Source: a virus
Taxonomy: Duplodnaviria > Heunggongvirae > Uroviricota > Caudoviricetes
Length of the DNA: 14,358 nt
Virus record (IMG/VR): IMGVR_UViG_3300030125_000009
Reading direction: 5' to 3' (one strand)
Numbering within the stretch: the stretch's first letter is position 1; each line of letters starts with the position of its first letter. The translations under genes and the position numbers were made by a program. Below the pieces are notes generated by a model. It was given only the letters and a program-made list of their open reading frames with translations, searched no databases and was not told the origin of the DNA. Shown in pieces: positions 1 through 14,358 of the stretch.

Positions 1-646
<646 letters not shown>

Positions 647-688
647 TTAGGATATTGATATGAACATCTAAGCACCTCATTACTGTGC

Positions 689-1333
689 TTAAAAGATGTT
701 ATCCTTACCTGTTAATTTACCTTGAGGAACTTTAGTGAGCTCCATCCGATAAAATGCTTTTATCATATTTACAAATGGCTCATATGGTGAATATTCGTTG
801 TCTTGTTTAGTAACGGTGTCTGTCATTGTCCTGATGTAGTCTGCGCTTACCACGTTGTTGTATTCTGTTGCGAAGCAGCATAACAACGTCAGAACATGCT
901 CTGTCGTTATTTCGATCCAGTTGATGTTGAAAAACTCATCGCCTTTTTTATCGTGTTCGGAATCGAAGATGCTTTGGTGGAGGATGTATTTGCCGGATTC
1001 CTTGCGCGGTAACTTGATCGCTTTCTGGCGTTCCAGTTCCTTGTAAATCTGCATTGCTTCAATTAGTACCGGCCTGCCGTTCATGAAGGGATCGCGCAAC
1101 CTTACACGCTGGCCAACTCGACCGGTAATAAAGCTGTTTTCCTCTTCCACCAGCACGATAAAACCCTTTTCCTCTTTTTCTCGCAATTCGCGCAGCAGCT
1201 GGAGTTCCATATCGCGGCGGCGTTCAGGGTAGCTGGTCCGCTCAGCCATTATCAGCTCGTTGTTGATCCATGCAGCAGTCATTGACGCCGGTTTACCGAC
1301 GCTCATCGAAACAACGCATATTTTCTTATCCAT
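689..1333 (-). CDS. Hypothetical protein, 214 aa (position corresponds to P1 mat, not verified)
   Basis: Open frame with ATG at 1333-1331 preceded by GGGGG Shine-Dalgarno (tatagggggcgctATG). The track's longer 263-aa version starts at GTG 1480 with no ribosome-binding site. No motif I recognise. Confidence 0.55.
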   Translation of the reverse strand: MDKKICVVSMSVGKPASMTAAWINNELIMAERTSYPERRRDMELQLLRELREKEEKGFIVLVEEENSFITGRVGQRVRLRDPFMNGRPVLIEAMQIYKELERQKAIKLPRKESGKYILHQSIFDSEHDKKGDEFFNINWIEITTEHVLTLLCCFATEYNNVVSADYIRTMTDTVTKQDNEYSPYEPFVNMIKAFYRMELTKVPQGKLTGKDNIF

Positions 1334-1522
1334 AGCGCCCCCTATAAAAAAGAAAAGCCACCAGCGGCGGCTTAGCAATACAACTGAAGGTAGCGCCCGG
1401 TACTCAGACTGTGCCGTCCATGGAATATTTGAAAAGGGATCCATCCGTACCGGGCATGTGATGATTCTGACTGAAGTCACTTGTCAGTTGTCAATTATTT
1501 CAGATTAAAAATAATATATTTA

Positions 1523-2083
1523 TTAGTGCATGATGTTTGCCATCTCATAGGCGTCAGCCAGCAATTCCATCTCTGACTTGTTCAGCAAGGTGAATTCTTT
1601 CTTGCCTCCAACCACACCATCGGCATGAACGGGGACCAGCCAGGGGTATTTTTCTCTTACTTCAGCCGGTGCTGCATGCTAGTGGTGCCATCTACAAAGG
1701 GGCAATTGCTTTTTGTGACAACCCGGCGCGGTACGACCGGAGATATGGTGCAGAGACACCTCTTCAGATATTACTCCATGCATGTAGCAGGCAATGCAGG
1801 GGAGAGCGCCAAGAGCATTGGCGATGCTCCGTTCCTCCGCTGTCGGTGTTCGCCCCTTCAAGCCACGAGATTTTATCTTTACCGCACTTTTCCGCGTTTT
1901 GCTGGCTGGTGGGCGCTCTTTCTGTTTAGCGATACGACGGTCGATAGAATCCCGCATTTTCTGATATTGCGATTCTCGCCAGGCGGGGTCAGCCAACTTT
2001 TCCCGTTGCCGAGCGATCGCTCGTTCTCTGGCTGCCTTCTGCCACTCGCGGCGCTGTTCAAGTTTTTGTTCGATTGTTTTCAT
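1523..2083 (-). pseudogene. ref: ref (P1 recombination enhancement function, HNH-type nuclease) interrupted by in-frame TAG amber codon at 1681-1679; truncated product 134 aa, full frame 186 codons
   Basis: Translation from ATG 2083 gives MKTIEQKLEQRREWQKAARERAIARQ...CHKKQLPLCRWHH, then TAG, then the same frame continues HAAPAEVREKYPWLVPVHADGVVGGKKEFTLLNKSEMELLADAYEMANIMH to TAA at 1525-1523. The 186-codon total matches the P1 Ref length I recall. Confidence 0.75.
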
Positions 2084-2088
2084 ATGGC

Positions 2089-2114
2089 AAAAAAAAGGCG
2101 GCCTAATGGCCGCC
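2089..2114 (-). terminator. Intrinsic-terminator-like hairpin plus U8 in the ref 5' leader, ending 5 nt before the ref ATG
   Basis: Minus strand reads GGCGGCC-AUUA-GGCCGCC followed by UUUUUUUU then GCCAU-AUG; a 7-bp GC stem and a U-run are seen directly. Confidence 0.5.
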
Positions 2115-2174
2115 AATGATGTCAAGGAGTGAAGTAATGGCAACGTCTTCGTAGTTGACAAAAACTGCGGCTAA

Positions 2175-2198
2175 ATTATAGCAATCAATTAGAGCAAT
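2175..2198 (-). promoter_or_regulatory. C1 operator (Op2-like, 14/17 match to ATTGCTCTAATAAATTT) overlapping a perfect TATAAT -10 element upstream of ref
   Basis: Minus strand ATTGCTCTAATTGATTG at 2198-2182 followed by GCTATAATTTAG (TATAAT at 2180-2175); a second weaker overlapping operator-like copy ATTGCTATAATTTAGCC. Confidence 0.65.
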
Positions 2199-2304
2199 GG
2201 TAGATATTTTGTTTCTCGCGAATCACATTTTTTCACTTCAGTACCTGTGTGCTATACTCCTTCTTGATTGATTGGATGCGGAATACAAACCCGCTCTTTT
2301 GTGC

Positions 2305-2332
2305 AGCCTGGCTCCTTGCCAGGCTTTTTTTT
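2305..2332 (+). terminator. Rho-independent terminator on the plus strand (8-bp stem agcctggc/gccaggct, loop tcctt, T8 run)
   Basis: Hairpin and T-run seen directly; on the minus strand it is preceded by an A-run, so it is unidirectional for plus-strand transcripts. No convincing plus-strand gene lies upstream. Confidence 0.6.
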
Positions 2333-2642
2333 ATTTCATCATGGAAGCTGTTAACGCTTTGGACCTTGCTGAACTGATTGAAAGGGCATTGTTTACCTTA
2401 CCCAGGAGTTCGCCAAATTCCCCCATCACTCTAGTAAGCCCGCGCCGCGCTTCCTCCTCCGTTGCATTCATCACAAAATGTTCAGCACTCCGCATGCTTT
2501 TAACGGGGAACGCAACAGATATCGAGTCGATATCAGGCATCCTATCGCTCAACTTTACGGTGACAATGACAGATGGCGACAGAATATTAGTGCTTACAGA
2601 CAGCACTACATATTTTCCGTCGATGTTGAAATCCTTTCTCAT
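2331..2642 (-). CDS. Hypothetical protein, 103 aa, in the cre-ref intergenic position (position of P1 cra, not verified)
   Basis: ORF with ATG at 2642; a C1 operator match in the same orientation sits just upstream (2659-2675). An antisense plus-strand ORF (2272-2763) overlaps it, so coding strand is not certain; weak ribosome-binding site. Confidence 0.35.
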   Translation of the reverse strand: MRKDFNIDGKYVVLSVSTNILSPSVIVTVKLSDRMPDIDSISVAFPVKSMRSAEHFVMNATEEEARRGLTRVMGEFGELLGKVNNALSISSARSKALTASMMK

Positions 2643-2658
2643 ATGCCACCATAAATAT

Positions 2659-2675
2659 CAAAAAATTAGAGCAAT
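2659..2675 (-). promoter_or_regulatory. C1 operator-like site (13/17 match) upstream of the 103-aa ORF
   Basis: Minus strand ATTGCTCTAATTTTTTG; the first 11 positions match the consensus exactly. Confidence 0.5.
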
Positions 2676-2692
2676 CATTTACGTGTTAATGG

Positions 2693-3724
2693 CTAATTGC
2701 CATCTTCCAGCAGGCGCACCATTGCCCCTGTTTCACTATCCAGGTTACGGATATAGTTCATGACAATATTTACGTTGGTCCAGCCACCAGCTTGCATGAT
2801 CTCCGGTATTGAAACTCCGGCACGGGCCATATCTCGCGCGGCTCCGACACGGGCACTGTGTCCAGACCAGGCCAGGTACCTCTGTCCAGAGTCATCCTTA
2901 GCCCCGTAAATCAATCGGTGAGTTGCTTCAAAAATCCCTTCTAGGGCGCGAGTTGATAGCTGGCTGGTGGGTGATGGCGAGGCAACACCATTTTTTCTGA
3001 CCCGGCAAAACAGGTAGTTATTCGGATCATCAGCCACACCAGAGACAGAAATCCATCGTTCGACCAGTTTAGTTACCCCCAGGCTAAGTGCCTTCTCTAC
3101 ACCTGCGGTGCTAACCAGCGTTTTCGTTCTGCCAATATGGATTAACATTCTCCCACCGTCAGTACGTGAGATATCTTTAACCCTGATCCTGGCAATTTCG
3201 GCTATACGTAACAGGGTGTTATAAGCAATCCCCAGAAATGCCAGATTACGTATATCCTGGCAGCGATCGCTATTTTCCATGAGTGAACGAACCTGGTCGA
3301 AATCAGTGCGTTCGAACGCTAGTGCCTGTTTTGCACGTTCACCGGCATCAACGTTTTCTTTTCGGATCCGCCGCATAACCAGTGAAACAGCATTGCTATC
3401 ACTTGGTCGCTGCAGCCCGGACCGACGATGAAGCATGTTTAGCTGGCCCAAATGTTGCTGGATAGTTTTTACTGCCAGACCGCGCGCCTGAAGATATAGA
3501 AGATAATCGCGAACATCTTCAGGTTCTGCGGGAAACCATTTCCGGTTATTCAACTTGCACCATGCCGCCCACGACCGGCAAACGGACAGAAGCATTTTCC
3601 AGGTATGCTCAGAAAACGCCTGGCGATCCCTGAACATGTCCATCAGGTTCTTGCGAACCTCATCACTCGTTGCATCGACCGGCAATGCAGGCAAATTTTG
3701 GTGTACGGTCAGTAAATTGGACAT
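2693..3724 (-). CDS. cre: Cre site-specific tyrosine recombinase, 343 aa (variant)
   Basis: Translation MSNLLTVHQNLPALPVDATSDEVRKNLMDMFRDRQAFSEHTWKMLLSVCRSWAAWCKLNNRKWFPAEPEDVRDYLLYLQARGLAVKTIQQH... is Cre. It differs from the canonical Cre I remember at three positions (GVASPSPTSQ versus GVAAPSATSQ; C-terminal GN versus GD). Confidence 0.97.
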   Translation of the reverse strand: MSNLLTVHQNLPALPVDATSDEVRKNLMDMFRDRQAFSEHTWKMLLSVCRSWAAWCKLNNRKWFPAEPEDVRDYLLYLQARGLAVKTIQQHLGQLNMLHRRSGLQRPSDSNAVSLVMRRIRKENVDAGERAKQALAFERTDFDQVRSLMENSDRCQDIRNLAFLGIAYNTLLRIAEIARIRVKDISRTDGGRMLIHIGRTKTLVSTAGVEKALSLGVTKLVERWISVSGVADDPNNYLFCRVRKNGVASPSPTSQLSTRALEGIFEATHRLIYGAKDDSGQRYLAWSGHSARVGAARDMARAGVSIPEIMQAGGWTNVNIVMNYIRNLDSETGAMVRLLEDGN

Positions 3725-3731
3725 TTGACAC

Positions 3732-3953
3732 TCAGATAATGGTTTTAAGTAAAGTGTACAGGATCGGCTCTGCCTTTACCTGTTTATGGTTCTCGTCATA
3801 GAAACGCCAACGACCGCGACTGCGTTCTATCTTTTCTTCACCGCGCGATAATGACAGTTGACAACTATCACGATCAAACCCTTTTGCCCGCCAGTAACCA
3901 CGATTTTTCTCAAGCTCAAGATGAGTGGACACTTTAGCAGCTGAATATCCCAT
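3732..3953 (-). CDS. Hypothetical small basic protein, 73 aa, immediately upstream of cre (stop 7 nt before the cre ATG)
   Basis: ATG at 3953 preceded by AGAGGTGAAAA (good Shine-Dalgarno); product MGYSAAKVSTHLELEKNRGYWRAKGFDRDSCQLSLSRGEEKIERSRGRWRFYDENHKQVKAEPILYTLLKTII is rich in R/K. No homolog recognised from memory. Confidence 0.5.
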   Translation of the reverse strand: MGYSAAKVSTHLELEKNRGYWRAKGFDRDSCQLSLSRGEEKIERSRGRWRFYDENHKQVKAEPILYTLLKTII

Positions 3954-4142
3954 TTTTCACCTCTGATTGATTGGTGGTGCTAAGTGCGCTACGCGAAATC
4001 TGGAGCACTAACACTGCCAACATTTCGCAGATTTTACGTAGCGCAACCTTGATCAAATGATCAAGTGATCACTATTTGACCTGATAAGGTATTGAGCTGT
4101 ATGGATTTACAGGTAAATTGATCATGTTCAATAACCCTTAAG

Positions 4143-4176
4143 ATAACTTCGTATAATGTATGCTATACGAAGTTAT
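4143..4176 (-). other. loxP: loxP recombination site (34 bp, perfect: 13-bp inverted repeats ATAACTTCGTATA flanking spacer ATGTATGC)
   Basis: Exact string ataacttcgtataatgtatgctatacgaagttat; spacer orientation is consistent with cre on the minus strand. Confidence 0.97.
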
Positions 4177-4219
4177 CAGGTCCGAAGAGGAGTTTACGTC
4201 CAGCCGCGCACAAAAATCA

Positions 4220-4236
4220 AGAATTATTAGAGCAAT
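4220..4236 (-). promoter_or_regulatory. C1 operator (Op99-like, 15/17 match), minus-strand orientation, between loxP and coi
   Basis: Minus strand ATTGCTCTAATAATTCT; its orientation points toward loxP and cre. Confidence 0.6.
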
Positions 4237-4296
4237 AAATTTTGAGAGAAAAATCCCACTCCACCAGCTAAAAACTGGATTGTTTTTCATAGTTGT

Positions 4297-4323
4297 TTGA
4301 CAATTGCTCTAATAAATTATAGT
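4297..4323 (+). promoter_or_regulatory. Candidate coi-c1 promoter with embedded C1 operator (16/17 match): -35 TTGACA 4297-4302, operator ATTGCTCTAATAAATTA 4303-4319, -10 TATAGT 4318-4323
   Basis: Seen directly; the operator overlaps the promoter spacer, the classic arrangement for repressor autoregulation. Confidence 0.7.
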
Positions 4324-4557
4324 TTTGCCGCCGTTACGTAATACGACTTTGGATTCACTATTTAATGTGTCTTCAGCGTTGTAGAGCGGCTCAAAAGGAA
4401 ATGAGCAAACAGGGAAACCTTATACAACGGCATTACAGCTATGCATTGCTCATCTTACACACAGCGCAATGTTGTTAGATTACCCCAGCATGGATCATGG
4501 GTGAAACAGTAGGTCAGAGCTTCAGGCTCTGTGTTGTCAATACAGTGAGGCATAATT

Positions 4558-4767
4558 ATGGCTTTCATTCAACCAACCATCGACGACGTTAGACATTGCT
4601 CTAACGCTTTATCTGTAGACCCTGCCGAAACCGACGCTGCCCGCGCCATTGCTGAACACTACTCAAAGATATCCAATCAGGAGTACCGCATCACCCAAGA
4701 CGACCTGGATGACCTCACTGACACAATCGAATATCTCATGGCAACTAACCAGTTAGACTCACAATAA
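4558..4767 (+). CDS. coi: Coi, C1 inactivator, 69 aa
   Basis: Translation MAFIQPTIDDVRHCSNALSVDPAETDAARAIAEHYSKISNQEYRITQDDLDDLTDTIEYLMATNQLDSQ; size and position immediately upstream of c1 match P1 coi; Shine-Dalgarno GTGAGG upstream. Confidence 0.85.
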   Translation: MAFIQPTIDDVRHCSNALSVDPAETDAARAIAEHYSKISNQEYRITQDDLDDLTDTIEYLMATNQLDSQ

Positions 4768-4877
4768 ATGCACTAATAAATCTATTATTTTTGTTTGATC
4801 CCTCTATAATATAGGTCAGTAATGACCGGTTTTCTCAGCCGAGCGTTATTGACCATGTCAATTCTGGAGGAGGATCA

Positions 4878-5729
4878 ATGATAAATTATGTCTACGGCGA
4901 ACAACTGTACCAGGAGTTCGTCAGCTTCAGGGATCTCTTTCTAAAAAAAGCTGTTGCACGCGCCCAACACGTTGATACAGCCAGCGACGGTCGTCCTGTA
5001 CGCCCGGTTGTCGTTCTACCGTTCAAAGAAACTGACAGCATTCAGGCTGAAATTGATAAATGGACTTTAATGGCGCGGGAACTGGAACAGTACCCAGACC
5101 TCAATATCCCAAAGACTATTTTATATCCAGTGCCTAACATCCTTCGCGGTGTGCGCAAGGTTACAACTTATCAGACAGAAGCTGTGAACAGCGTCAACAT
5201 GACCGCTGGCCGCATTATTCATCTGATTGATAAGGACATTCGCATCCAAAAAAGCGCGGGGATCAATGAGCACAGTGCGAAATACATAGAGAACCTGGAA
5301 GCAACAAAAGAGCTAATGAGGCAGTACCCGGAGGATGAAAAATTCCGTATGCGCGTACACGGCTTTAGCGAAACAATGCTGCGCGTCCATTACATTTCCA
5401 GTAGCCCTAACTACAATGATGGTAAATCAGTTAGTTACCATGTGCCGCTGTGTGGTGTGTTTATCTGCGATGAAACTCTCCGTGATGGAATCATCATCAA
5501 CGGTGAATTCGAGAAAGCAAAATTTAGCCTTTATGACTCTATAGAACCGATCATCTGCGACCGCTGGCCGCAGGCAAAAATATATCGCCTGGCAGATATT
5601 GAAAATGTAAAAAAACAAATTGCCATCACTCGCGAAGAGAAAAAGGTCAAATCAGCCGCATCAGTTACGCGCAGCCGTAAAACCAAGAAGGGGCAGCCAG
5701 TAAACGACAACCCCGAAAGCGCGCAATAA
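4878..5729 (+). CDS. c1: C1 repressor of lysogeny, 283 aa
   Basis: Translation MINYVYGEQLYQEFVSFRDLFLKKAVARAQHVD... at 283 aa matches P1 C1 as I recall it; strong Shine-Dalgarno GGAGGAGG; many copies of its operator are present in the window. Confidence 0.93.
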   Translation: MINYVYGEQLYQEFVSFRDLFLKKAVARAQHVDTASDGRPVRPVVVLPFKETDSIQAEIDKWTLMARELEQYPDLNIPKTILYPVPNILRGVRKVTTYQTEAVNSVNMTAGRIIHLIDKDIRIQKSAGINEHSAKYIENLEATKELMRQYPEDEKFRMRVHGFSETMLRVHYISSSPNYNDGKSVSYHVPLCGVFICDETLRDGIIINGEFEKAKFSLYDSIEPIICDRWPQAKIYRLADIENVKKQIAITREEKKVKSAASVTRSRKTKKGQPVNDNPESAQ

Positions 5730-5734
5730 ATTAT

Positions 5735-5752
5735 GCCCGGCATCAACCGGGC
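5735..5752. terminator. GC-rich hairpin (gcccgg-catcaa-ccgggc) between convergent c1 and ant; possible bidirectional terminator
   Basis: A 6-bp GC stem seen directly, flanked by T/A-rich sequence on both sides; sits in the 32-bp gap between the two stop codons. Confidence 0.45.
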
Positions 5753-5761
5753 ATTCTTCCA

Positions 5762-6628
5762 TTATTCAGCCGCCACCGGTTTTAACAAGCCAGCATCGAG
5801 CAGTTTACGCGTCAACCACTGCTGGCCTTTACCCGTTAATTGAGGCGTCAACCGTATCTGGTAGCCATCTTCATCATCCAGCACCACTTCTTTCACCGTG
5901 AAATACCCCGCGTTGATGTACTGCTGGAACGGCACATTTTTACGTCCACCGGACGCTATCAGGATGCCGTTCTCCCGTAACCAGACAAACAGCGCGTTTT
6001 GCTTAAGTCCAACAACCTTTGCAAAATTCCCAATCAGGATCCCTTTAGCTACTGATACCCGGTCGGCAAAATCGACTTTAGGAGCGGCGGCCACCAGCTG
6101 CTGATTTAGCTGGTGGGCTTTCTGTTCCAGAAGCTGCTTTTGTTCAGCCAGTTCGGCAGCCAGGCGCAGAGCTTCTGGAAGCGTCTGGGGGATTGCAACC
6201 GGTTGCTGTTCTTTTTGCCGGAAGTAGCTGTCTTCCAGTTTTTCAAAGAATGCCCATGCCTGATCGGTTTCGAGCATTTTAGCGTGGCGGGCTGCGCCGC
6301 GTTCCGTCCAGAGGATGAGTGAGCGGGCTTTAGGAGAGATAGGATTTTGTGAGTTACTTAAAGTCACCCGCAAATTGTTCAAATCATCTCCAATAACTTT
6401 ATAGAAATGCTTGCCTTCACAAAAACGTTCAGCATTACGGGAAAAGTTCTTCTTGATGTTATCCGCATCTGTCCCATACCCCTTAGCAAGGATCTTAGTT
6501 GTCACTACACGCACTCCCTGCCACTCTAGAACGGGAATTTCATCCGGCTGACTTTGAACAACCACCAGTTCTGATTCCTGAACTAAAGGTGTATTAATTT
6601 TTTCAGATTTAACGTTAGTAGCTTTCAT
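5762..6628 (-). CDS. ant2: Ant2, 288 aa, in-frame internal initiation product of the ant ORF
   Basis: Internal ATG at 6628 (MKATNVKSEK...) has its own strong Shine-Dalgarno AAGGAGG 8 nt upstream, in the same frame as ant1; this mirrors the P1 ant1/ant2 arrangement. Confidence 0.6.
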   Translation of the reverse strand: MKATNVKSEKINTPLVQESELVVVQSQPDEIPVLEWQGVRVVTTKILAKGYGTDADNIKKNFSRNAERFCEGKHFYKVIGDDLNNLRVTLSNSQNPISPKARSLILWTERGAARHAKMLETDQAWAFFEKLEDSYFRQKEQQPVAIPQTLPEALRLAAELAEQKQLLEQKAHQLNQQLVAAAPKVDFADRVSVAKGILIGNFAKVVGLKQNALFVWLRENGILIASGGRKNVPFQQYINAGYFTVKEVVLDDEDGYQIRLTPQLTGKGQQWLTRKLLDAGLLKPVAAE

Positions 6629-6877
6629 TCTGTGTGCCTCCTTGCGTGTTTCGGCTGCGACGGTTGCGTAATTCAGATGCCCCTGTTCGAGCAGGTATTC
6701 ACGGATATCAGACAGCAGGATACGGTGAACAGCGTTCTTGTCCTTTCTCCGGTAAAGTTGTTTGGTGATCATGAAGTAGTTGGCAATAACGCCAGGTATA
6801 TCCCTGGTACTGATACAGGCAGAGTGCTGTTCAATTGCCTCGATCATCTCTTCACGGGTAACTAACGATGTTCTCAT
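5762..6877 (-). CDS. ant1: Antirepressor Ant1, 371 aa (ORF6N/KilA-N-like N-terminal region plus Ant C-terminal domain); a second in-frame start gives Ant2
   Basis: ATG at 6877 preceded by AGGAGGG; the icd stop overlaps it (ATGA). Antirepressor-family domain assignment is from memory of the family, not from a search. Confidence 0.8.
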   Translation of the reverse strand: MRTSLVTREEMIEAIEQHSACISTRDIPGVIANYFMITKQLYRRKDKNAVHRILLSDIREYLLEQGHLNYATVAAETRKEAHRMKATNVKSEKINTPLVQESELVVVQSQPDEIPVLEWQGVRVVTTKILAKGYGTDADNIKKNFSRNAERFCEGKHFYKVIGDDLNNLRVTLSNSQNPISPKARSLILWTERGAARHAKMLETDQAWAFFEKLEDSYFRQKEQQPVAIPQTLPEALRLAAELAEQKQLLEQKAHQLNQQLVAAAPKVDFADRVSVAKGILIGNFAKVVGLKQNALFVWLRENGILIASGGRKNVPFQQYINAGYFTVKEVVLDDEDGYQIRLTPQLTGKGQQWLTRKLLDAGLLKPVAAE

Positions 6878-7095
6878 AGTCCCTCCTGAGCAGAAGCGTT
6901 AACAGGGAGGCACCAGTAACTGAGAGAATTGCGTGAATCAGTGGAAAAACGGGCAGAGAAAATACATGGGGCGTCAGGAAGCTGAGAGCGGGCCTCATCT
7001 TCTGTCGGTGCAATAACGAAGTGATAGTGACGTTTTTGGCAGGAGTAAAAGCGCCAGATAAATTCAGGATGAGTTGGGGTAGGGATAGTAGCCAT
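6874..7095 (-). CDS. icd: Icd-like protein (interference with cell division), 73 aa, translationally coupled to ant1
   Basis: ATG at 7095 preceded by AAGGAGG; product MATIPTPTHPEFIWRFYSCQKRHYHFVIAPTEDEARSQLPDAPCIFSARFSTDSRNSLSYWCLPVNASAQEGL; TGA stop overlaps the ant1 ATG; 73 codons equals the P1 icd length as I recall. Confidence 0.7.
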   Translation of the reverse strand: MATIPTPTHPEFIWRFYSCQKRHYHFVIAPTEDEARSQLPDAPCIFSARFSTDSRNSLSYWCLPVNASAQEGL

Positions 7096-7151
7096 ATTGG
7101 CAGCCTCCTTAGACGTTGGTATGTAACCACCGCAGAAGAGACCAATCTTGC

Positions 7152-7231
7152 TGGCGGTGGACTGTACGGAGTTGGCCTTACTGGCGTCCAAGGTAACCAG
7201 CCTACCCGAAGGTAGCCCCATACAGCCCACC
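7152..7231 (-). ncRNA. c4: Candidate c4-like antisense repressor RNA (about 80 nt, tRNA-like terminal stem, 3' GCCA)
   Basis: On the minus strand, GGUGGGCUGUAU pairs with GUACAGUCCACC as a 12-bp terminal stem, followed by GCCA; internal 5-bp hairpin with UUCG loop; the segment CCUUGGACG is complementary (9 bp, one G-U) to CGUCUAAGG, which overlaps the icd ribosome-binding site. Boundaries are approximate. Confidence 0.45.
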
Positions 7232-7260
7232 ATTGTAGAGGTGTGCGTGTACGCCGATAC

Positions 7261-7283
7261 AAAAAAAAGACGCGAGCGGCGTC
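7261..7283 (-). terminator. Rho-independent terminator downstream of pacB (hairpin GACGC-CGCUC-GCGUC plus U8)
   Basis: Hairpin followed by an 8-U run on the minus strand, about 150 nt after the pacB stop. Confidence 0.6.
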
Positions 7284-7414
7284 TGTATCGCCTTAGACTT
7301 AAGCGGGAGGCCAATCCCGGCACCCGTTTTAATGAGGTGCCTGATAAGCATAAACCGAAAATGCCTCAAGGCGCAAGAGGTCAGGTTCAATGTAACATCG
7401 GCAGTTAAAAAACA

Positions 7415-7431
7415 CAATTTATTAGAGCAAA
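7415..7431 (-). promoter_or_regulatory. C1 operator (Op51-like, 15/17 match) directly after the pacB stop and upstream of the c4-icd-ant module
   Basis: Minus strand TTTGCTCTAATAAATTG. Confidence 0.65.
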
Positions 7432-7434
7432 TAT

Positions 7435-8919
7435 TCATTCATTAAGCCATGCCAGAGCTTCATCAACCTGCGCTTCGTCTTCGACGCTAAGCACTTCATC
7501 TTGGGGAACATAATCCGCCAGCATAGCGAAACAATATGTATCCCAATGGTCTGGTGAGTGCAGGTTGAGTTTTTTCTTCATATCCTCCTTACTCATCACC
7601 TTCCATTGACCTGCGGAGTTAATCCCTACAGGGATTTTCGACGCTTCCTCAATAGTTTCATTACCCTTATCCAGTCTCATACGACCAGATTTTACGGCCT
7701 CTGCGGCTTGAACGTTGGCATAAGCACGTTTATCAAAGTACAGGCTCTTATCTTCACGGCTATGCATCTTTTTACCCCAGCGTATACGCTGTACGGTAAT
7801 ACCATAATACTCGTACATCAGATCCGCCGTTGCTTTACCCAGGCCATCGCCGTCTATCGCTATGGTAATATTTGGGAATCGCTCAGGATTACATTCTGCG
7901 AAAATTTTGGCGGCAAGCTGCGTTTCTGTAACGTCTGTGTATTCCAGCATTCGATAGTTGATTACACGGCGTTTATTTCTCTGGCCGGACACCATCATGA
8001 TATTGATAACGGACTTATCCCTTCCCGTACCACCAGCAACGTCCACACATGCAAGCCAGCCCCATCCTTTGGCAATCTTGACTTTCCGCCGCGTTGCACG
8101 TTCAACCTCATCACGTCCAAGAAGGAAGCCATCCTGTGATTTAGGGAATAGGCCGCGTACCTTAATCATGTACATAGGGTTATCGCGCCCGCCGTACTCC
8201 GCCAGCTTCATTTTGATAAATGCTGGCGTTACCAGCGGTGATTCCTCACTGTTAAGCGTGATCGCCGTATAAACGCCATCAGGGTTACCAGGACGCTTGG
8301 CCAGTTTATGGTGAGTATCGTAGAAATAGCCGCTTGGGCGTGTAGGCTGTGACAGTAATAAGATGCGGTTATCCTGTCCGGTAAGAGCACCGGTGATGAT
8401 ACCGAAAGCTCTATCACTGACACCGGAGGCTTCATCGATAATATACAGAAGATGATCTGCGTGTTCACCGGCGAGAGCTTCTTCACTTCCCAGACGAAAG
8501 CCCTTCGGTACTACAGTCCATACACCTTTACCAGTAACCTCATAGAAAGCGGTTTCTGTCAGAACAAAATAATCAGCAAGCCACGGAAAACGGCTGGTGG
8601 CCGTAGCCCAGTTTATCTTGATGTACTTGAATATACCGGTCATTACCTGCTGAATTTTGTTCGCAACGATAATGGCGCGGGCACCGGGATACATGATTAT
8701 GAACAACATGATCATGATAGAAGTCATGTCTGATTTCCCGGTACCGTGACCAGACGAAACAGATGTCTTGCTACCCTGTTCCTGCACAGACTCAATAATC
8801 AGATCCTGCTGCCAGGTAGGTGTTTTGCCGAACAAAACATCAGCGGCAGCAATCCAGTCATAACGATATAGCGCCACCAGCTCGCGCCAACGTGGATCCG
8901 TTACGCAACTTCTGGCCAT
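7435..8919 (-). CDS. pacB: PacB, pacase (terminase) large subunit, 494 aa
   Basis: Translation [22 protein letters not shown]...; size and position (after pacA, start overlapping the pacA stop as TAATG) match P1 pacB. Confidence 0.9.
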
Positions 8920-10112
8920 TAATCATCATCCCCGTATAGCTTGCGGGTAACTTCTTCGTCTTCCTCCTCGTCTTCGTCCAGGTCTTGTTCCAGCCATGGG
9001 TCGTTTGATACACCTTCAGTATCAACATCTCCATAACCGCCTGTATCAACGATATCGGCGATTTCTTCCCTACGCTGCTCAATCCACAATGCGGCATCGG
9101 CGCGGCGGTTGGCGGCCCGTTCTCGCGCAACTTTGTCCAGATCTTCAAGAGAAGGGCCACCGACGGCTGTTTGCCTTTCCTCATCATCGGTATTGGTCTT
9201 AGGAGCACGCAGATCGGCTTTGATTTGCTCCAGCATCAGGGGCGGCACTTTTCCGCCATGCGCCTCGATGAATTCAGCTGCTTCCAGCACTGACCAGTTA
9301 TTTTCACGCTTTCGTTCGTATGCCAGCTTAACAATGCCAGCTTGCCCCATAGACAAAGCGTGCTTTTCCGCCTCCCGGCTTTCTTTTCGATAGTTATTCC
9401 GGATGCTGTAAATGGTGTTGATCAGGCTGCTTATCTGCGCGGAACAGCTGTTTAGCATGCTCGCGATACGGTATTCAGGCGGAGTACCTTCATCATCGTC
9501 TTTTTGCTGATCGCGCATTTCCTGCACCAGGCGAATACACGTATCCCTGGCGTTCTCCAGCATAAGGAGATGAGAAAGAGACTTTTCCAGAAGAGTGGTT
9601 TCCAGAACATCGGCCCCGGACCGACGCAACATAGCGCGCGCGGCCTTCCGCGCTTCAACGTTATCTATCAGGTAATCGCCAGCTTCGAATTCAAAGCGTT
9701 CACCATCATCATCCAGGGTGTCGCGTTCCAGGCGATCACGTAAGGTCCGGTGGGCGCGGGTGATCACGTCATGATCATCTGAACGATCATTTATGCGCTT
9801 ATTTTGGCGCTTCGCATTATCGACTGCGGCACTGACAACGGCATTAACTCTTTGTTTTTCATCCATTTCAGCCACAACGTGATCACCTGCACGTTGATCA
9901 TTAGCGTGATCAATGATCATGCTTTTTAGTGGTTTCCTGACAGGCTTATTTGGCTTACGGCTGTCCGCTGTTCCGGTGTCTTCTTTGAATGCACGGAGAT
10001 AACGACGTGCGGTGTTTGGGTTGAGATTAAACTCGGCGGCATATTGTGCGATGGTGTAACCACCATCTCGCGCCAGGCGAGCAAAATTCTTCTTGTGATC
10101 GTCCCAGGTCAC
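8919..10112 (-). CDS. pacA: PacA, pacase small subunit, 397 aa, with the pac site inside its coding sequence; GTG start
   Basis: Translation (V/M)[41 protein letters not shown]... with acidic C-terminal tail; GTG start preceded by AAGGAAG and an in-frame TAA just upstream. Confidence 0.9.
9734..9919. other. pac: pac packaging site: two clusters of TGATCA/GATC hexamers (Dam sites) within pacA
   Basis: TGATCA at 9761, 9772, 9880, 9895, 9907 and 9914, plus CGATCA at 9733 and 9785, flanking a spacer of about 90 bp; matches the known P1 pac architecture. Confidence 0.8.
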
Positions 10113-10198
10113 TTATGCTTCCTTTCGTATAAAACTCTTTTTGACGCGAGGGTAACGAAAGTCACATGTCAAAAGGCCCGGAACGGGCAAGCAATCAA

Positions 10199-10651
10199 TC
10201 AGATACGTGCGGATGTGGCATTACCGTAATGACGGTGCTGACGGACCACCTTATTGAAAAATTGACGCGCCATTACCCAAGGCTGGTGCTCCCGGCGTTC
10301 CTTTTCGTCCTGCGTCATATAGAGTTCGTTCTGGAGTTTTTCATCAAACCGGCGCGGAGCGCGACTGCGGCGAAAGAATTCAGGATTCAGAGAGTGGATC
10401 TGAAATCTACGTGGGCGTGTACTGTCATCAATCAAAACAGACGAATACTTAGACACAGCGATAGCCTTTAAGCGCAGATAAACATCGCGCTTATCGACAT
10501 CCAGATGCGGGTATTCCTTTTCAAGAATTGCTGCGAGTTCTTTCGCTGATAGAAGAGATTTAGTGCGGATCATGTAATCCGCAATCTCGTACGATGTTAT
10601 TCGTGAGTGATTTATTTCCATGAAGTGGCGTCCCTGCCAGTTAAGTAACAT
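10199..10651 (-). CDS. lpa: Lpa (late promoter activator, gp10)-like protein, 150 aa
   Basis: Position immediately upstream of pacA; a C1 operator lies in its promoter region; Shine-Dalgarno AGGTGACAGG before the ATG. Identity is by synteny and size, not sequence recall. Confidence 0.7.
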   Translation of the reverse strand: MLLNWQGRHFMEINHSRITSYEIADYMIRTKSLLSAKELAAILEKEYPHLDVDKRDVYLRLKAIAVSKYSSVLIDDSTRPRRFQIHSLNPEFFRRSRAPRRFDEKLQNELYMTQDEKERREHQPWVMARQFFNKVVRQHRHYGNATSARI

Positions 10652-10721
10652 CCTGTCACCTACTGATTAGCCCATGTCAACTAATCAACGTCGAATATAA
10701 TACCCTCGATTAAAGAAATAG

Positions 10722-10738
10722 CAATACATTAGAGCAAT
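10722..10738 (-). promoter_or_regulatory. C1 operator (14/17 match) upstream of lpa
   Basis: Minus strand ATTGCTCTAATGTATTG, immediately after the pdcB stop. Confidence 0.6.
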
Positions 10739-10739
10739 T

Positions 10740-11783
10740 TTATCTAACACTCGACGAATGACTTGTGATAGCGCCAACTCCAAGCGCGTAATCAAAGAAC
10801 AATCGTTGATGCATCGCCAGCCTACCGTGCGTCTTCTCCCAATTATCGCGGTCACGCTCAATATCACGCTGGCATGACTGGCACAGAGGAATAGCATAAA
10901 TGTCATGCGCGCATAATCGACTATGACGAACTATATAAGGCGTAATGTGAGCGCCAGCTCCCGCAGCTCCACAGCCACAGCATGGACGGGAAGCCACAAA
11001 GTCCATGTACTCGGGCAATTTTAGCGATTGAAGTTTTGGTATTTTGAAATGCGCCATACCTGGGTCGGAGTCAACATCCACAGGGCATACTTTTGCACGC
11101 ATCGGCGCGGCGCGTTCTTCCATCATCTGAACATATGCTGTAGCGCGATCGTCATACGGGCGAATATCCGCCTCTTTCAGAGGTCCGCTATCCTGCGGAA
11201 TAGCCTTCATCTTATTTATTGATATGCGGCAGACTTCTTCCGGCATCAGGTGCATCATGTTGCGCATGAAAGCCCACCAGCACAGCTCCTGAATACTTAA
11301 ATCATGGCTATTTGAAAGGCCCATTTCCTGACGGGCGACATCCAGTATCCAGTTAACGCGATTATTGTGCAGCGTTTCTTTCAGCTCATTAAAACCACGC
11401 ATCCGATAATGGTGATCGTGATGCCAGCACAACAACACCGCGCTATTGTCTCGTTCAGCGTGGACAATATGGTTGTCACACCAACTACGATCTGCGGCCT
11501 GGCATTGCCCCTCTTTCCTGCGCAACCACGCCACCAGCGCGTCAATTCCACCAATACGGCGAAACAGTTCATCGCTGTTAAAAAACGGCTGCAACGCCTC
11601 ATTTGTTGCCATGGTTTGCTCGGTAACAACGAGGCCGTCTTCCATGTGCTCGATTAACTCACGCGGCACCGGCTCCATAATAAATTTACGGCCAGCCTCC
11701 ACCAGCTTTCTGACCTCCTGATCCACTTTGAACGTGGCGAGGCCAAGCTCTTTCTGTACAAAGGGAGTAATTACGGCTTTCAC
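10740..11783 (-). CDS. pdcB: PdcB-like protein (post-doc gene), 347 aa, Cys/His-rich; GTG start
   Basis: Long open frame between pdcA and lpa; GTG start preceded by AAAGGTG; motifs CWHHDHH and CCGCG...PLCQSCQ. Name assigned by synteny with P1. Confidence 0.6.
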
Positions 11784-11810
11784 ATCACACCTTTAATCAC
11801 TGATTGGGCT

Positions 11811-11990
11811 TTATCTGCTGCCCGGCATTCTCTGTTTAAGCACAACCATTTCCTGACGGCATAACACAGCAATAGCAGTCCTGGCTCCAATTTGCTTACC
11901 AACCAGGTATTGCTTTACCTCGCGGCGACTCACGCCATCAAGAAGCATCTTTAACGCTTCACGGGACAATTTGTTGTATTTGCGTGCCAT
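11811..11990 (-). CDS. pdcA: PdcA-like small protein, 59 aa (ATG at 11990, 4 nt after the doc stop)
   Basis: MARKYNKLSREALKMLLDGVSRREVKQYLVGKQIGARTAIAVLCRQEMVVLKQRMPGSR; GGAG Shine-Dalgarno 9 nt upstream. The track's 66-aa version starts further upstream, inside doc. Confidence 0.5.
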   Translation of the reverse strand: MARKYNKLSREALKMLLDGVSRREVKQYLVGKQIGARTAIAVLCRQEMVVLKQRMPGSR

Positions 11991-11994
11991 TAAT

Positions 11995-12375
11995 CTACTC
12001 CGCAGAACCATACAATCTACGTAACGTGTCGGCGACAGAAGATACAGATATCTCGCCAGTCGCAGCGCCTACAGTAAGGTCTGCCAGTTCAGGTGAATCA
12101 AATACCTGCACCCCGTTACGGCGTAGAAATAGCAGCGCGCTGTTTAGCGCGGTACGCTTATTGGCATCATTGAATATATGCCCTCTCGCTGTAGCCACCA
12201 GGTAGGTGGCGGAGACTTCGAAAAGGTCGGTGATCTCTTCGTAGGCAACTCTGGCCTGAACTCTCCCGATAATGGCCTCTGCCCTACCCGGATCTGACAT
12301 TCCCGGCAGGCCGCCGTAGCGGCTTATATTCGCATCATGAAGCGCAATAAGTTCTTCCGGTGATATATGCCTCAT
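11995..12375 (-). CDS. doc: Doc toxin (Fic-fold kinase), 126 aa
   Basis: Translation [92 protein letters not shown]... is P1 Doc; start overlaps the phd stop (TAATG). Confidence 0.95.
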
Positions 12376-12596
12376 TATCGGTTAACCAGTTCCTTGTTGG
12401 TGGAGTCCAGGGTGTCAAACAGGGATGCAAATTCAGCATCCAGCGCCGCTTTTTTGTAGGCTTCGAAAGTAGCCTTGCTGACAATTACTGCTGGCTCACG
12501 ACCTCTGCGGGTGATTTCAACCTCTTCCCCGGCTTCAACATTGTTGAGCACTTCAGAAAGGTTGCCGCGCGCGGTACGGAAGTTAATGGATTGCAT
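12375..12596 (-). CDS. phd: Phd antitoxin, 73 aa
   Basis: Translation [73 protein letters not shown]; true start is ATG 12596 with GAGGTG Shine-Dalgarno (the track begins 2 codons upstream at GTG). Confidence 0.95.
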
Positions 12597-12605
12597 AAAC
12601 ACCTC

Positions 12606-12633
12606 GTGTACTCGTTATGTGTACACAATTATA
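12606..12633 (-). promoter_or_regulatory. phd-doc promoter/operator: palindromes GTGTACTC (12606-12613) and TGTGTACACA (12618-12627), with TATAAT -10 at 12633-12628
   Basis: Perfect 10-bp palindrome and an adjacent imperfect copy between a consensus -10 and the phd ATG; consistent with autoregulation by Phd/Doc. Confidence 0.6.
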
Positions 12634-12772
12634 AACTTCACAGGCATAAAGCACCAGCACTTTGCGGCTTAACAAACCTCTAGGCAGGTCATTCGTAGCC
12701 TAATGTCCGAACTGCTAAAGCATCCAAGTTGCTGTAGAATCACCGCCAATTACATAAGCCTGAAATAAGTGG

Positions 12773-14260: not shown

Positions 14261-14358
14261 TGCTGCCAACTTACTGATTTAGTGTATGATGGTGTTTTTG
14301 AGGTGCTCCAGTGGCTTCTGTTTCTATCAGCTGTCCCTCCTGTTCAGCTACTGACGGG
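14256..14358 (+). mobile_element. IS1, left end (IRL) and start of insA, partial (runs off the right window edge)
   Basis: ggtgatgctgccaacttactgatttagtgtatgatggtgtttttgaggtgctccagtggcttctgtttctatcagctgtccctcctgttcagctactgacggg matches the IS1 terminus and insA 5' region as I remember them. Confidence 0.9.
14311..14358 (+). CDS. insA: IS1 InsA, N-terminal fragment (GTG start)
   Basis: GTG GCT TCT GTT TCT ATC AGC TGT CCC TCC TGT TCA GCT ACT GAC GGG translates to (M)ASVSISCPSCSATDG, the InsA N-terminus. Confidence 0.8.
   Translation, partial: MASVSISCPSCSATDG

What the first reader, a model, noticed from the sequence alone, without database searches (positions are those of the whole stretch)
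2175..10738. Dispersed C1 operator network, including a 14-bp ATGCACTAATAAAT repeat at the 3' ends of ref and coi
Six sites match the 17-bp C1 operator at 13-16 of 17 positions (2182-2198, 2659-2675, 4220-4236, 4303-4319, 7415-7431, 10722-10738), each oriented with the transcription unit it precedes (ref, cra-like ORF, toward cre, coi-c1, immI-like module, lpa). Two weaker copies share ATGCACTAATAAAT and overlap the stop codons of ref (1519-1532, minus strand) and coi (4768-4781). These may be low-affinity operators or looping partners.
Basis: partly seen in the sequence, partly recalled or inferred. Interest (0 to 1): 0.35.

Follow-up and report, generated by a model that had tools for sequence, protein, structure and literature searches.

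The report
Known P1 repressor operators, P1-like plasmid
The repeated 17-base sites are real binding sites for the phage P1 master repressor C1 in a P1-like plasmid prophage, but nearly all are exact copies of operators already mapped in phage P1, so the finding is correct and ordinary.

Summary
The window is a P1-like phage-plasmid, collinear with P1 across mat-ref-c8-cre-cra-loxP-coi-c1 and then pacB-pacA-lpa-pdcB-doc-phd.

All eight sites exist. One coordinate is off by a base: the ref-side 14-mer lies at 1518-1531. A weight matrix trained only on 12 P1 operators from outside this region ranks the eight as the top eight hits. That is 8 sites at 14 bits or more against 0.21 expected, reached in 0 of 1000 shuffles.

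Six of the eight are base-for-base identical to operators annotated in P1:
- Oref/Op2a
- Oc1e/Op99e
- Oc1d/Op99d
- Olpa/Op94
- Omat/Op2b, the first "weaker" copy
- Oc1a/Op99a, half of the bivalent c1 autoregulatory operator, the second "weaker" copy

The site at 7415-7431 is the positional homolog of Op51. It heads a second immI module (isrK/a1b1 leader, C4 RNA, icd, ant) inserted between c1 and pacB. The insert is common in P1-like plasmids.

Only the site at 2659-2675, upstream of c8 (not a "cra-like ORF"), has no annotated counterpart in P1 or P7. It remains a candidate.

Verdict: already known biology, correctly recognised. Interest is low.

The parts
1516..1532 (-). Omat (former Op2/Op2b): CATGCACTAATAAATAT. 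It overlaps ref's stop codon, points toward mat, and lies 21 bp upstream of the Pmat -35 (TTGACA, 1489-1494).
   Evidence: Identical to the P1 site at 2628-2644. P7 annotates the same sequence as Op(mat). Independent PWM score 20.1 bits. Identical in 16 of 17 relatives.
1505..1521 (+). Possible weak 'b' half-site of Omat (TTAAAAATAATATATTT), in the same inverted 6-bp-overlap geometry as Oc1b.
   Evidence: The 24/25 identity between the Omat and Oc1ab regions extends through this arm. The P1 record calls Omat monovalent, so this part is inference only.
2182..2198 (-). Oref (former Op1/Op2a): ATTGCTCTAATTGATTG. It sits between the -35 and -10 of P2ref.
   Evidence: Identical to P1 1962-1978, and the promoter hexamers are conserved. 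PWM 17.3 bits. PMC4713147 states that a C1 site occludes a ref promoter and that ref is induced when C1 is inactivated.
2659..2675 (-). Candidate operator ATTGCTCTAATTTTTTG, 16 bp upstream of the c8 start codon. It is not annotated in P1 or P7.
   Evidence: PWM 15.7 bits, which is in the grey zone. The core ATTGCTCTAAT is present in 31 of 37 IMG/VR relatives. P1 and P7 have ATTGCTATAAT instead.
4220..4236 (-). Oc1e (Op99e): ATTGCTCTAATAATTCT. It abuts the P4cre -35 and points toward cra and cre.
   Evidence: Identical to P1 94724-94740. PWM 24.5 bits.
4303..4319 (+). Oc1d (Op99d): ATTGCTCTAATAAATTA. It fills the spacer of P1coi, the promoter of imcA/B-coi-c1.
   Evidence: Identical to P1 94641-94657. 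The TTGACA -35 at 4297-4302 is conserved. PWM 24.7 bits.
4595..4611 (+). Oc1c (Op99c): ATTGCTCTAACGCTTTA, inside coi.
   Evidence: Identical to P1 94349-94365. Invariant in 23 of 23 relatives. PWM only 10.1 bits.
4767..4783 (+). Oc1a (Op99a): AATGCACTAATAAATCT. It is one half of the bivalent operator Oc1ab, which overlaps the -35 of Pc1 and mediates c1 autoregulation.
   Evidence: Identical to P1 94177-94193. The Pc1 hexamers TCTATT and TATAAT are conserved. PWM 22.4 bits. Invariant in 23 of 23 relatives.
4778..4794 (-). Oc1b: ACAAAAATAATAGATTT, the weak second half of the bivalent Oc1ab.
   Evidence: Positional equivalent of P1 94166-94182, with 1 base different.
4878..5729 (+). c1, the repressor that reads these sites.
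   Evidence: 283 aa, 98.9% identical to P1 C1.100.
4558..4767 (+). coi, the C1 inactivator.
   Evidence: 97% identical to P1 Coi.
7415..7431 (-). Op51-type operator TTTGCTCTAATAAATTG. It overlaps the -35 (TTGTGT, 7412-7417) of a P51a-like promoter at the head of the second immI module.
   Evidence: Aligns with P1 Oc4/Op51 at the same offset. PWM 20.5 bits. Promoter hexamers located. Conserved in relatives that carry the insert.
7263..7340 (-). isrK / c4-a1b1-type leader RNA carrying the a1 (7308-7314) and b1 (7291-7298) target boxes, with a terminator at 7261-7284.
   Evidence: Rfam isrK, 60.8 bits. Complementarity shown. Terminator.
7150..7237 (-). C4 antisense RNA of the second immI module.
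   Evidence: Rfam RF01695, 75.9 bits, E = 1e-13.
6874..7095 (-). icd homolog. Its Shine-Dalgarno sequence (7104-7110) is covered by the b2 target of C4.
   Evidence: 80% identical to P1 Icd. The b' loop pairs with 7107-7115 at -14.5 kcal/mol.
5762..6877 (-). ant homolog (an ORF6N domain plus a KilAC domain).
   Evidence: 54% identical to P1 Ant1 over its full length. Pfam ANT at 6e-31 and ORF6N at 9e-19.
10722..10738 (-). Olpa (Op94): ATTGCTCTAATGTATTG. It overlaps the -35 of Plpa, the promoter of the late-promoter activator gene.
   Evidence: Identical to P1 89904-89920 with an identical context. PWM 14.5 bits.

Best explanation
The window is the immC region and its neighbours from a P1-like plasmid prophage. 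The 17-bp asymmetric sites are the operators of its C1 repressor.

How it works: C1 is made from c1 at 4878-5729. It binds each site and blocks a sigma-70 promoter that the site overlaps or adjoins. This keeps the following units silent in the lysogen:
- ref, through Oref inside P2ref
- mat, through Omat
- the coi-c1 operon, through Oc1d inside P1coi
- c1's own promoter, through the bivalent Oc1ab over the Pc1 -35, which gives autoregulation
- a cre promoter, through Oc1e
- the antirepressor operon, through the Op51-type site
- lpa, the activator of all late promoters, through Olpa

The two copies of ATGCACTAATAAAT are Omat and Oc1a. They sit on the stop codons of ref and coi because genes are tightly packed and each is the operator of the next gene downstream.

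What is shown here: sequence identity and positional identity with annotated P1 operators and promoters, statistical excess, and conservation in relatives.

What is inferred from P1 knowledge: that C1 binds these sites and represses in this particular plasmid.

The c8-upstream site is only a candidate.
For: - Identity of the window: a 96% gapless alignment of window 824-4159 to P1 3336-1, and 96% for window 4160-5728.
- Annotation match: the P1 record lists Oref, Omat, Olpa and Oc1a-e at the corresponding positions. The window has identical 17-mers and conserved -35/-10 hexamers.
- Independent test: a PWM built from 12 P1 operators outside this region ranks exactly these eight sites first. There are 8 sites at 14 bits or more against 0.21 expected, reached in 0 of 1000 shuffles.
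- Conservation: the sites, especially the core at positions 1-11, are conserved in 8 to 37 IMG/VR P1-like contigs.
- Repressor: C1 is 98.9% identical to P1 C1.
- Literature: the consensus ATTGCTCTAATAAATTT and 22 dispersed operators are stated in PMC8546580. C1 control of ref is described in PMC4713147.
- Op51-type site: it aligns with P1 Oc4 and is followed by C4 RNA, icd and ant homologs.
Against: - No binding or expression data exist for this particular plasmid.
- Omat lies 21 bp upstream of the Pmat -35 rather than over it, so how it represses mat is not evident from sequence.
- Oc1c scores only 10.1 bits, within chance range. It is accepted only because P1 annotates it.
- The c8 site scores 15.7 bits. 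In whole P1, four unannotated hits reach 14 bits or more.
- Flanks of the c8 site are as conserved as the site itself, so there is no selection signal.
Confidence: 0.93

Rival explanations
1. The matches are background hits of an AT-rich 17-mer in AT-rich intergenic DNA and have no function.
For: Scores in the 10-12 bit range are compatible with chance: 1.7 hits expected at 10 bits or more. The simple promoter scan of the region found no more promoter-like sites than shuffles did, 9 against 9.1.
Against: - Eight sites reach 14 bits or more against 0.21 expected, and five reach 20 bits or more against 0.002. Shuffles within 200-bp blocks that keep local composition give the same expected numbers.
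- The PWM was trained on operators from elsewhere in P1, so the test is not circular.
- Six of the eight are identical to annotated P1 operators.
Confidence: 0.01
2. The two inverted copies of the 24/25-bp repeat (1507-1531 and 4768-4792) are recombination or inversion sites, or ends of a mobile cassette carrying ref-c8-cre-lox-coi. On this reading they are not operators.
For: They are inverted relative to each other and bracket a 3.2-kb segment that contains a site-specific recombinase gene. The identity goes beyond the 17-bp operator.
Against: - The relative orientation of mat, cre and c1 is the same in every IMG/VR relative that carries them. No inverted or excised form was seen.
- Both copies are annotated C1 operators in P1.
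- The extra identity (ATTATTTT) is shared with a third P1 operator of the same subclass, Oppp/Op83, located elsewhere in the genome.
- A T-tract plus TAA after the operator is common among P1 operators.
Confidence: 0.02
3. Omat and Oc1a are low-affinity sites whose main role is to pair with each other, or with strong operators, by C1-mediated DNA looping over about 3.2 kb.
For: - C1-mediated looping among the Op99 operators was reported for c1 autoregulation (Heinzel et al. 1994 J Biol Chem, recalled from memory; not retrievable here).
- Omat is not placed over the Pmat hexamers.
- The two sites share an unusually long identity.
Against: - By the independent PWM they are not weak: 22.4 and 20.1 bits, ranks 3 and 5.
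- Each has a simpler local role already assigned in P1, at Pc1 and at mat.
- Nothing in the sequence tests looping.
Confidence: 0.08
4. The c8-upstream site (2659-2675) is not an operator. It is a promoter -10 element or a neutral relic.
For: - P1 and P7 carry ATTGCTATAAT here, a perfect extended -10 (TGnTATAAT), and neither record annotates an operator.
- The score of 15.7 bits is in the grey zone.
- The right half, TTTTTTG, is a poor match.
- Flanks are as conserved as the site.
Against: - The 11-bp core ATTGCTCTAAT is perfect and present in 31 of 37 relatives.
- The commonest variant is 15/17 identical to the established Oref.
- It scores above the annotated Olpa and Oc1c.
- It has the right orientation and lies 16 bp from the c8 start.
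- In P1 the P53 -10 is TCTAAT inside Op53, so a site that is both operator and -10 has a precedent.
Confidence: 0.55

Closest known systems
C1 operator regulon of bacteriophage P1, as annotated in GenBank AF234172 (Oref, Omat, Oc1a-e, Olpa; older names Op2a, Op2b, Op99a-e, Op94)
   Same: - Same 17-bp asymmetric consensus.
- Identical sequences at eight of the ten sites; a ninth, Oc1b, differs from P1 by one base.
- Same positions relative to the same genes and the same promoter hexamers.
- Same orientation rule.
- Repressor 98.9% identical.

   Different: - The host element is a P1-like plasmid, about 96% identical to P1, not P1 itself.
- It has an extra Op51-type operator next to c1.
- It has an operator-like core upstream of c8 where P1 and P7 have ATTGCTATAAT.

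Bivalent C1 operators of P1 (Obanab/Op72ab and Oc1ab/Op99ab)
   Same: Oc1ab is present with the same inverted, 6-bp-overlapping geometry. The Omat region matches it at 24 of 25 bases, including the 'b' arm.
   Different: Omat is annotated as monovalent in P1. Its putative b arm has only 10 of 17 matches to the consensus, like Oc1b.
P1/P7 immI operon (Op51, P51a/P51b, c4 antisense RNA, icd, ant1/2)
   Same: - A C1 operator over the -35 of the first promoter.
- A second promoter downstream.
- An a1/b1 leader, then C4 RNA, then a2/b2 boxes covering the icd ribosome-binding site.
- Icd 80% and Ant 54% identical to P1.

   Different: - It lies between c1 and pacB, not between sim and kilA.
- The C4 recognition loops differ (CCUUGGACG and AGGCCAA against P1's UCACUAAC and CUGUCAA), so the antisense specificity is predicted to be distinct.
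- The middle of Ant is replaced by an ORF6N domain.
- Relatives carry it in addition to the canonical immI.
isrK-orf45-anrP locus of Salmonella prophage Gifsy-1 (PMC4825925)
   Same: An isrK-family leader RNA with its own terminator, followed by a small ORF and an antirepressor gene. The Rfam isrK match scores 60.8 bits.
   Different: Here the module is headed by a P1 C1 operator and contains a C4 RNA and a P1-type icd. No antQ-type target is in view.

Membership tests
P1 C1-repressor operators | Match to the asymmetric 17-bp consensus ATTGCTCTAATAAATTT, above chance | tested here: met
   Six sites with 3 mismatches or fewer against 0.06 expected. Eight sites at 14 bits or more with an independent PWM against 0.21 expected, reached in 0 of 1000 shuffles. 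Oc1c (10.1 bits) and Oc1b do not pass on score alone.
P1 C1-repressor operators | Cognate C1 repressor encoded by the same element | tested here: met
   c1 at 4878-5729 is 283 aa with 3 substitutions relative to P1 C1.100.
P1 C1-repressor operators | Positional orthology to experimentally defined P1 operators | tested here: met
   Eight of ten sites are identical, and a ninth (Oc1b) differs by one base, at the corresponding P1 coordinates. The 7415 site aligns with Op51. The c8 site has no annotated counterpart.
P1 C1-repressor operators | Overlaps or adjoins a sigma-70 promoter and points in the direction of the controlled gene | tested here: met
   P1-annotated hexamers are conserved around Oref, Oc1e, Oc1d, Oc1ab and Olpa. 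A P51a-like promoter sits at the 7415 site. Omat lies 21 bp upstream of the Pmat -35. No convincing promoter was found for the c8 site.
P1 C1-repressor operators | Physical binding by C1 and repression in vivo | not testable with these tools
   This needs EMSA or footprinting, ChIP, or reporter assays.
Bivalent C1 operator (Op72ab/Op99ab type), applied to Omat | Two 17-mers in inverted orientation overlapping by 6 bp, both recognisable as operators | tested here: inconclusive
   The geometry is present, and the region matches Oc1ab at 24 of 25 bases. The b arm matches the consensus at only 10 of 17, and P1 annotates Omat as monovalent.
P1/P7 immI operon | C4 antisense RNA with loops complementary to a1/b1 and a2/b2 boxes, b2 covering the icd ribosome-binding site | tested here: met
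   Rfam C4, 75.9 bits. The b' loop pairs with 7107-7115 next to the Shine-Dalgarno sequence at -14.5 kcal/mol (p = 0.008 against shuffles). The a1, b1 and a2 boxes were located.
P1/P7 immI operon | icd and ant genes downstream, translationally linked | tested here: met
   Icd is 80% and Ant 54% identical to P1. The icd stop overlaps the ant start (6874-6877), as in P1.
P1/P7 immI operon | Canonical genomic position between sim and kilA-repL | tested here: not met
   The module lies between c1 and pacB. Relatives keep a separate canonical immI. It is therefore a paralogous second copy, not the immI locus itself.

The most novel reading that the evidence does not exclude
Two sites extend the C1 regulon beyond what P1 and P7 document.

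(1) In most P1-like plasmids the cre-c8 intergenic site carries an intact operator core, TGCTCTAAT. It may act as an Op53-type combined operator and -10 element that puts the lysogeny-establishment gene c8 under direct C1 control. In the reference phages P1 and P7, a single C-to-A change turns it into a consensus extended -10 (TGCTATAAT) that would escape C1.

(2) About half of P1-like elements carry a second C1-gated immI module right next to c1. Its C4 antisense RNA has a different specificity from the canonical one. This would give two independently lockable antirepressor circuits and an extra layer of heteroimmunity.
Probability: 0.3. Interest if true: 0.35.

Novelty: already known. Interest (0 to 1): 0.12.

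Why it matters
It matters little for new biology, because the dispersed C1 operator network is textbook P1 regulation.

The practical value is in annotation. P1-like phage-plasmids are common carriers of resistance genes, and automatic pipelines do not mark their operators or the C4 and isrK RNAs.

Two things would add to the picture if confirmed:
- Many of these plasmids carry a second C1-gated antirepressor module next to c1.
- Many carry an operator-like core upstream of c8 that the reference phages lack.

Both could help explain differences in immunity and inducibility among these elements.

Tried and rejected
- The P1 genome paper (PMC523184) is not held. Operator names and roles were therefore taken from the GenBank records of P1 and P7.
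- Full-text searches for Op99a, Op2b, Op72 and Op51 returned only unrelated papers. The original footprinting and looping papers could not be read, so they are cited from memory only.
- The generic sigma-70 and terminator scan of 1300-7500 gave 9 promoter-like hits against 9.1 expected. It did not pick up the P1-annotated promoters, so it was not used as evidence.
- Whole-molecule RNA duplex folding of C4 against its leaders was uninformative because everything unfolds. It was replaced by loop-only pairing with shuffled controls.
- Selection on the c8 site could not be shown: its flanks are 97% conserved, like the site itself.
- The inversion or cassette idea for the inverted 25-mers was rejected because gene orientation is constant in relatives.
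- The paper on 77 P1-like phage-plasmids (PMC9603915) does not mention the insert, immunity or operators.


Full report
**What the window is.** Megablast against phage records gives P1-like phage-plasmids as best hits: vB_EcoM-673R5 at 97% over 93% of the window, then RCS47, SJ46, P1 and P7.

Relative to P1 (AF234172) the window is inverted and collinear. Window 824-4159 aligns without gaps to P1 3336-1 at 96%. Window 4160-5728 aligns to the end of the P1 record at 96%. Window 7437-12672 aligns to pacB through phd at 93%.

The gene order in window coordinates is:
- IS5 end, 1-648
- mat, 692-1444 (-)
- ref, 1523-2083 (-)
- c8, 2331-2642 (-)
- cre, 2693-3724 (-)
- cra, 3732-3953 (-)
- loxP, 4140-4173
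- coi, 4558-4767 (+)
- c1, 4878-5729 (+)
- a 1.7-kb insert absent from P1 and P7, 5729-7436
- pacB, pacA and lpa, all (-)
- pdcB, pdcA, doc and phd
- a type I hsdM gene

C1 differs from P1 C1.100 at 3 of 283 residues, so carrying over the P1 operator consensus is justified.

**Observation check.** The six primary sites are exactly where stated, with 13 to 16 of 17 matches to ATTGCTCTAATAAATTT. That consensus, and the statement that C1 binds 22 operators dispersed over P1, are given in PMC8546580.

The 14-mer ATGCACTAATAAAT occurs twice, at 4768-4781(+) and 1518-1531(-), against 0.01 expected. As 17-mers these two sites match the consensus at 14/17 and 13/17, so by count they are no weaker than Oref, Olpa or the c8 site. 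All six primary sites point in the direction of the gene that follows.

**Is it more than chance?** At 3 mismatches or fewer there are 6 matches against 0.06 expected.

To avoid circularity I built a weight matrix from the 12 C1 operators that P1 annotates outside the region homologous to this window: Op21, 51, 53, 55, 68, 72a, 72b, 82, 83, 86a, 86b and 88. I then scanned the window with it.

There are eight sites at 14 bits or more against 0.21 expected, and five at 20 bits or more against 0.002. None of 1000 dinucleotide-preserving shuffles reaches the observed counts. Shuffling within 200-bp blocks, which keeps local AT-richness, gives the same expectations.

One caution applies. In the whole P1 genome, four unannotated positions also reach 14-16 bits, so that range is a grey zone.

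**What the sites are.** The P1 GenBank record annotates C1 operators at exactly the corresponding places. The window's 17-mers are identical to them:

| Window site | P1 operator | Role |
|---|---|---|
| 2182-2198 | Oref (former Op1/Op2a) | lies between the -35 and -10 of P2ref |
| 1516-1532 | Omat (former Op2/Op2b) | "controls expression of mat" |
| 4220-4236 | Oc1e (Op99e) | abuts the -35 of P4cre |
| 4303-4319 | Oc1d (Op99d) | fills the spacer of P1coi |
| 4767-4783 | Oc1a (Op99a) | half of bivalent Oc1ab, over the -35 of Pc1 |
| 10722-10738 | Olpa (Op94) | overlaps the -35 of Plpa |

All the P1-annotated promoter hexamers are conserved in the window except one base in the P2ref -35 and one in the P2coi -35.

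Oc1c/Op99c lies inside coi at 4595-4611, has 5 mismatches and is invariant in 23 of 23 relatives. Oc1b, the weak half of Oc1ab, lies at 4778-4794.

Across 37 IMG/VR P1-like contigs the sites are conserved, with variation concentrated in positions 12-16. PMC4713147 independently states that a C1 site occludes a ref promoter and that ref is induced with other C1-controlled genes.

**The two "weaker" copies.** They are Omat and Oc1a. Each sits on the stop codon of the upstream gene because it is the operator of the next gene downstream (mat and c1) in a tightly packed genome.

With the independent matrix they score 20.1 and 22.4 bits, ranks 5 and 3. This is because A at position 6 (GCAC instead of GCTC) is a normal variant, also seen in Op72b, Op82 and Op83.

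The identity between the two is longer than reported: ATGCACTAATAAAT[A/C]TATTATTTTT, 24 of 25 bases. The extension covers the arm that forms the weak b half-site of the bivalent Oc1ab. Omat therefore has the same layout, although P1 calls it monovalent.

A third P1 operator, Oppp/Op83 (CATGCACTAATTAATTT followed by ATTATTTT), belongs to the same subclass. More generally, many P1 operators are followed by a T-tract plus TAA. The P1 record uses this as the -10 of promoters whose -35 is the operator's own TTGCTC, for example PpmgR and P2pmgT.

So the extended identity reflects a shared operator-promoter design rather than a recent duplication or a recombination site. In line with that, the relative orientation of mat, cre and c1 is constant in every relative examined.

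**The site at 7415-7431.** It lies at the pacB-proximal end of the 1.7-kb insert, which is a complete immI-type module on the minus strand. In order along that strand:
- the operator TTTGCTCTAATAAATTG, overlapping a P51a-like -35 (TTGTGT, 17-nt spacer, TACATT)
- a P51b-like promoter (TTGAGG, 17-nt spacer, TATCAG)
- an isrK / c4-a1b1-type leader with its own terminator (Rfam 60.8 bits)
- a C4 antisense RNA (Rfam 75.9 bits)
- an icd homolog, 80% identical to P1 Icd
- an ant homolog, 54% identical to P1 Ant1, with ORF6N and KilAC domains

The operator aligns with P1 Oc4/Op51 at the same offset.

The C4 loops differ from P1's. They are complementary to boxes in their own leader, and to a box next to the icd Shine-Dalgarno sequence: the b' loop pairs with 7107-7115 at -14.5 kcal/mol, p = 0.008 against shuffles. 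Cross-pairing with the P1 targets is weak, at -6.3 and -7.1 kcal/mol.

Relatives such as 673R5, RCS47, 813R1, JL22 and phi456 carry this module in addition to the canonical immI between sim and kilA. P1 and P7 lack it. At least 268 PLSDB plasmids have it, as do 9 of 18 IMG/VR contigs that span c1 to pacB.

Venturini et al. 2019 (PMC6906374) already noted [quoted passage not shown]. I found no description of its operator, its RNAs or its distinct antisense specificity.

**The site at 2659-2675.** This is the only site without an annotated counterpart. It lies 16 bp upstream of c8, which is 93% identical to P1 C8. The gene is not cra-like; cra is at 3732-3953.

The window has ATTGCTCTAATTTTTTG, scoring 15.7 bits. 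The commonest form in relatives, ATTGCTCTAATTCTTTG, is 15/17 identical to the established Oref. The 11-bp core is intact in 31 of 37 relatives.

P1 and P7 instead have ATTGCTATAATTATTTG. Neither record annotates an operator there, and that sequence contains a perfect extended -10, TGnTATAAT. In P1 the -10 of P53 is annotated as the TCTAAT inside Op53, so a combined operator and -10 element has a precedent.

The flanks are as conserved as the site, so conservation gives no evidence of selection. I rate this site about 45% likely to be a functional operator.

**Mechanism.** Shown here:
- the sites, their identity with P1 operators, and their positions relative to conserved promoters
- the presence of c1 and coi, and of a second ant module

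Inferred from established P1 biology (records; PMC8546580):
- C1 binds each asymmetric site and blocks RNA polymerase at the overlapping promoter.
- Lxc strengthens binding.
- Coi and Ant inactivate C1.
- Release of Olpa lets Lpa activate the late promoters.
- Oc1ab gives c1 autoregulation.

C1-mediated looping among the Op99 operators is recalled from the older literature and could not be checked here. A loop between Omat and Oc1a is neither supported nor excluded.

**Novelty and verdict.** The dispersed operator network, including both ATGCACTAATAAAT copies, is already documented for P1. The finding is real, correctly interpreted in outline, and ordinary. The modest residual interest lies in the unannotated c8-upstream site and in the second C1-gated immI module with a distinct C4 specificity.

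Noticed in passing
window 1679-1681 (ref, minus strand): ref carries a nonsense codon: TAG, giving Q135* relative to P1 Ref. This truncates the protein before His153, which is one of the two residues changed in the Ref H134/153A construct of PMC4713147. All 20 IMG/VR relatives covering this codon have CAG. It is either a pseudogene or a sequencing error.
   Followed up: yes
window 5729-7436: A second immI module (operator, two promoters, isrK/a1b1 leader, C4 RNA, icd, ant) is inserted between the convergent c1 and pacB genes. Its C4 loops and targets differ from P1's, which predicts an orthogonal antisense specificity. Relatives also keep the canonical immI. It is present in at least 268 PLSDB plasmids and in half of the IMG/VR contigs that span the junction.
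   Followed up: yes
window 2659-2675; P1 1485-1501; P7 1485-1501: A single base distinguishes an operator-like core (TGCTCTAAT, in the window and most relatives) from a perfect extended -10 (TGCTATAAT, in P1 and P7) upstream of c8. This could be a toggle between a C1-repressible and a constitutive c8 promoter.
   Followed up: partly
P1 AF234172 2628-2645 (L001): The P1 record annotates Omat as an 18-bp feature on the minus strand, but the consensus match (CATGCACTAATAAATAT) is on the plus strand at 2628-2644. The P7 record annotates Op(mat) on the plus strand. This looks like an annotation slip.
   Followed up: yes
P1 operators genome-wide (L001, L002, L006, L007): Many C1 operators are followed at +21 to +27 by a T-tract ending in TAA. 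Three operators (Omat, Oppp/Op83, Oc1a) form a subclass, [C/A]ATGCACTAAT...ATTATTTT.
   Followed up: partly
window 4095-4114: The LexA box overlapping P2coi is conserved, with 1 base different from P1. SOS input to coi is therefore probably retained.
   Followed up: partly
window 1-648 and 649-823: An IS5 end abuts the region just past the 3' end of mat. P1 homology of mat stops at 824, so the last ~44 codons of mat differ from P1.
   Followed up: no
window 12673-14358: P1 homology ends after phd. A type I restriction-modification methylase gene (hsdM, 12773-14260) replaces humD, which flanks phd in P1.
   Followed up: no
IMG/VR loci L018, L020, L035, L038, L042: In these contigs the best ant-like match lies elsewhere or in the opposite orientation relative to cre. 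This suggests that immI-like modules occupy more than one insertion hot spot in P1-like plasmids. Compare pSvP1 RD-1 in PMC6906374.
   Followed up: no
window 4587-4606 and 5733-5754: Oc1c sits in the 3' arm of a 7-bp-stem hairpin inside coi. A 9-bp-stem hairpin between the c1 stop and the ant stop looks like a bidirectional terminator at the insert boundary.
   Followed up: no
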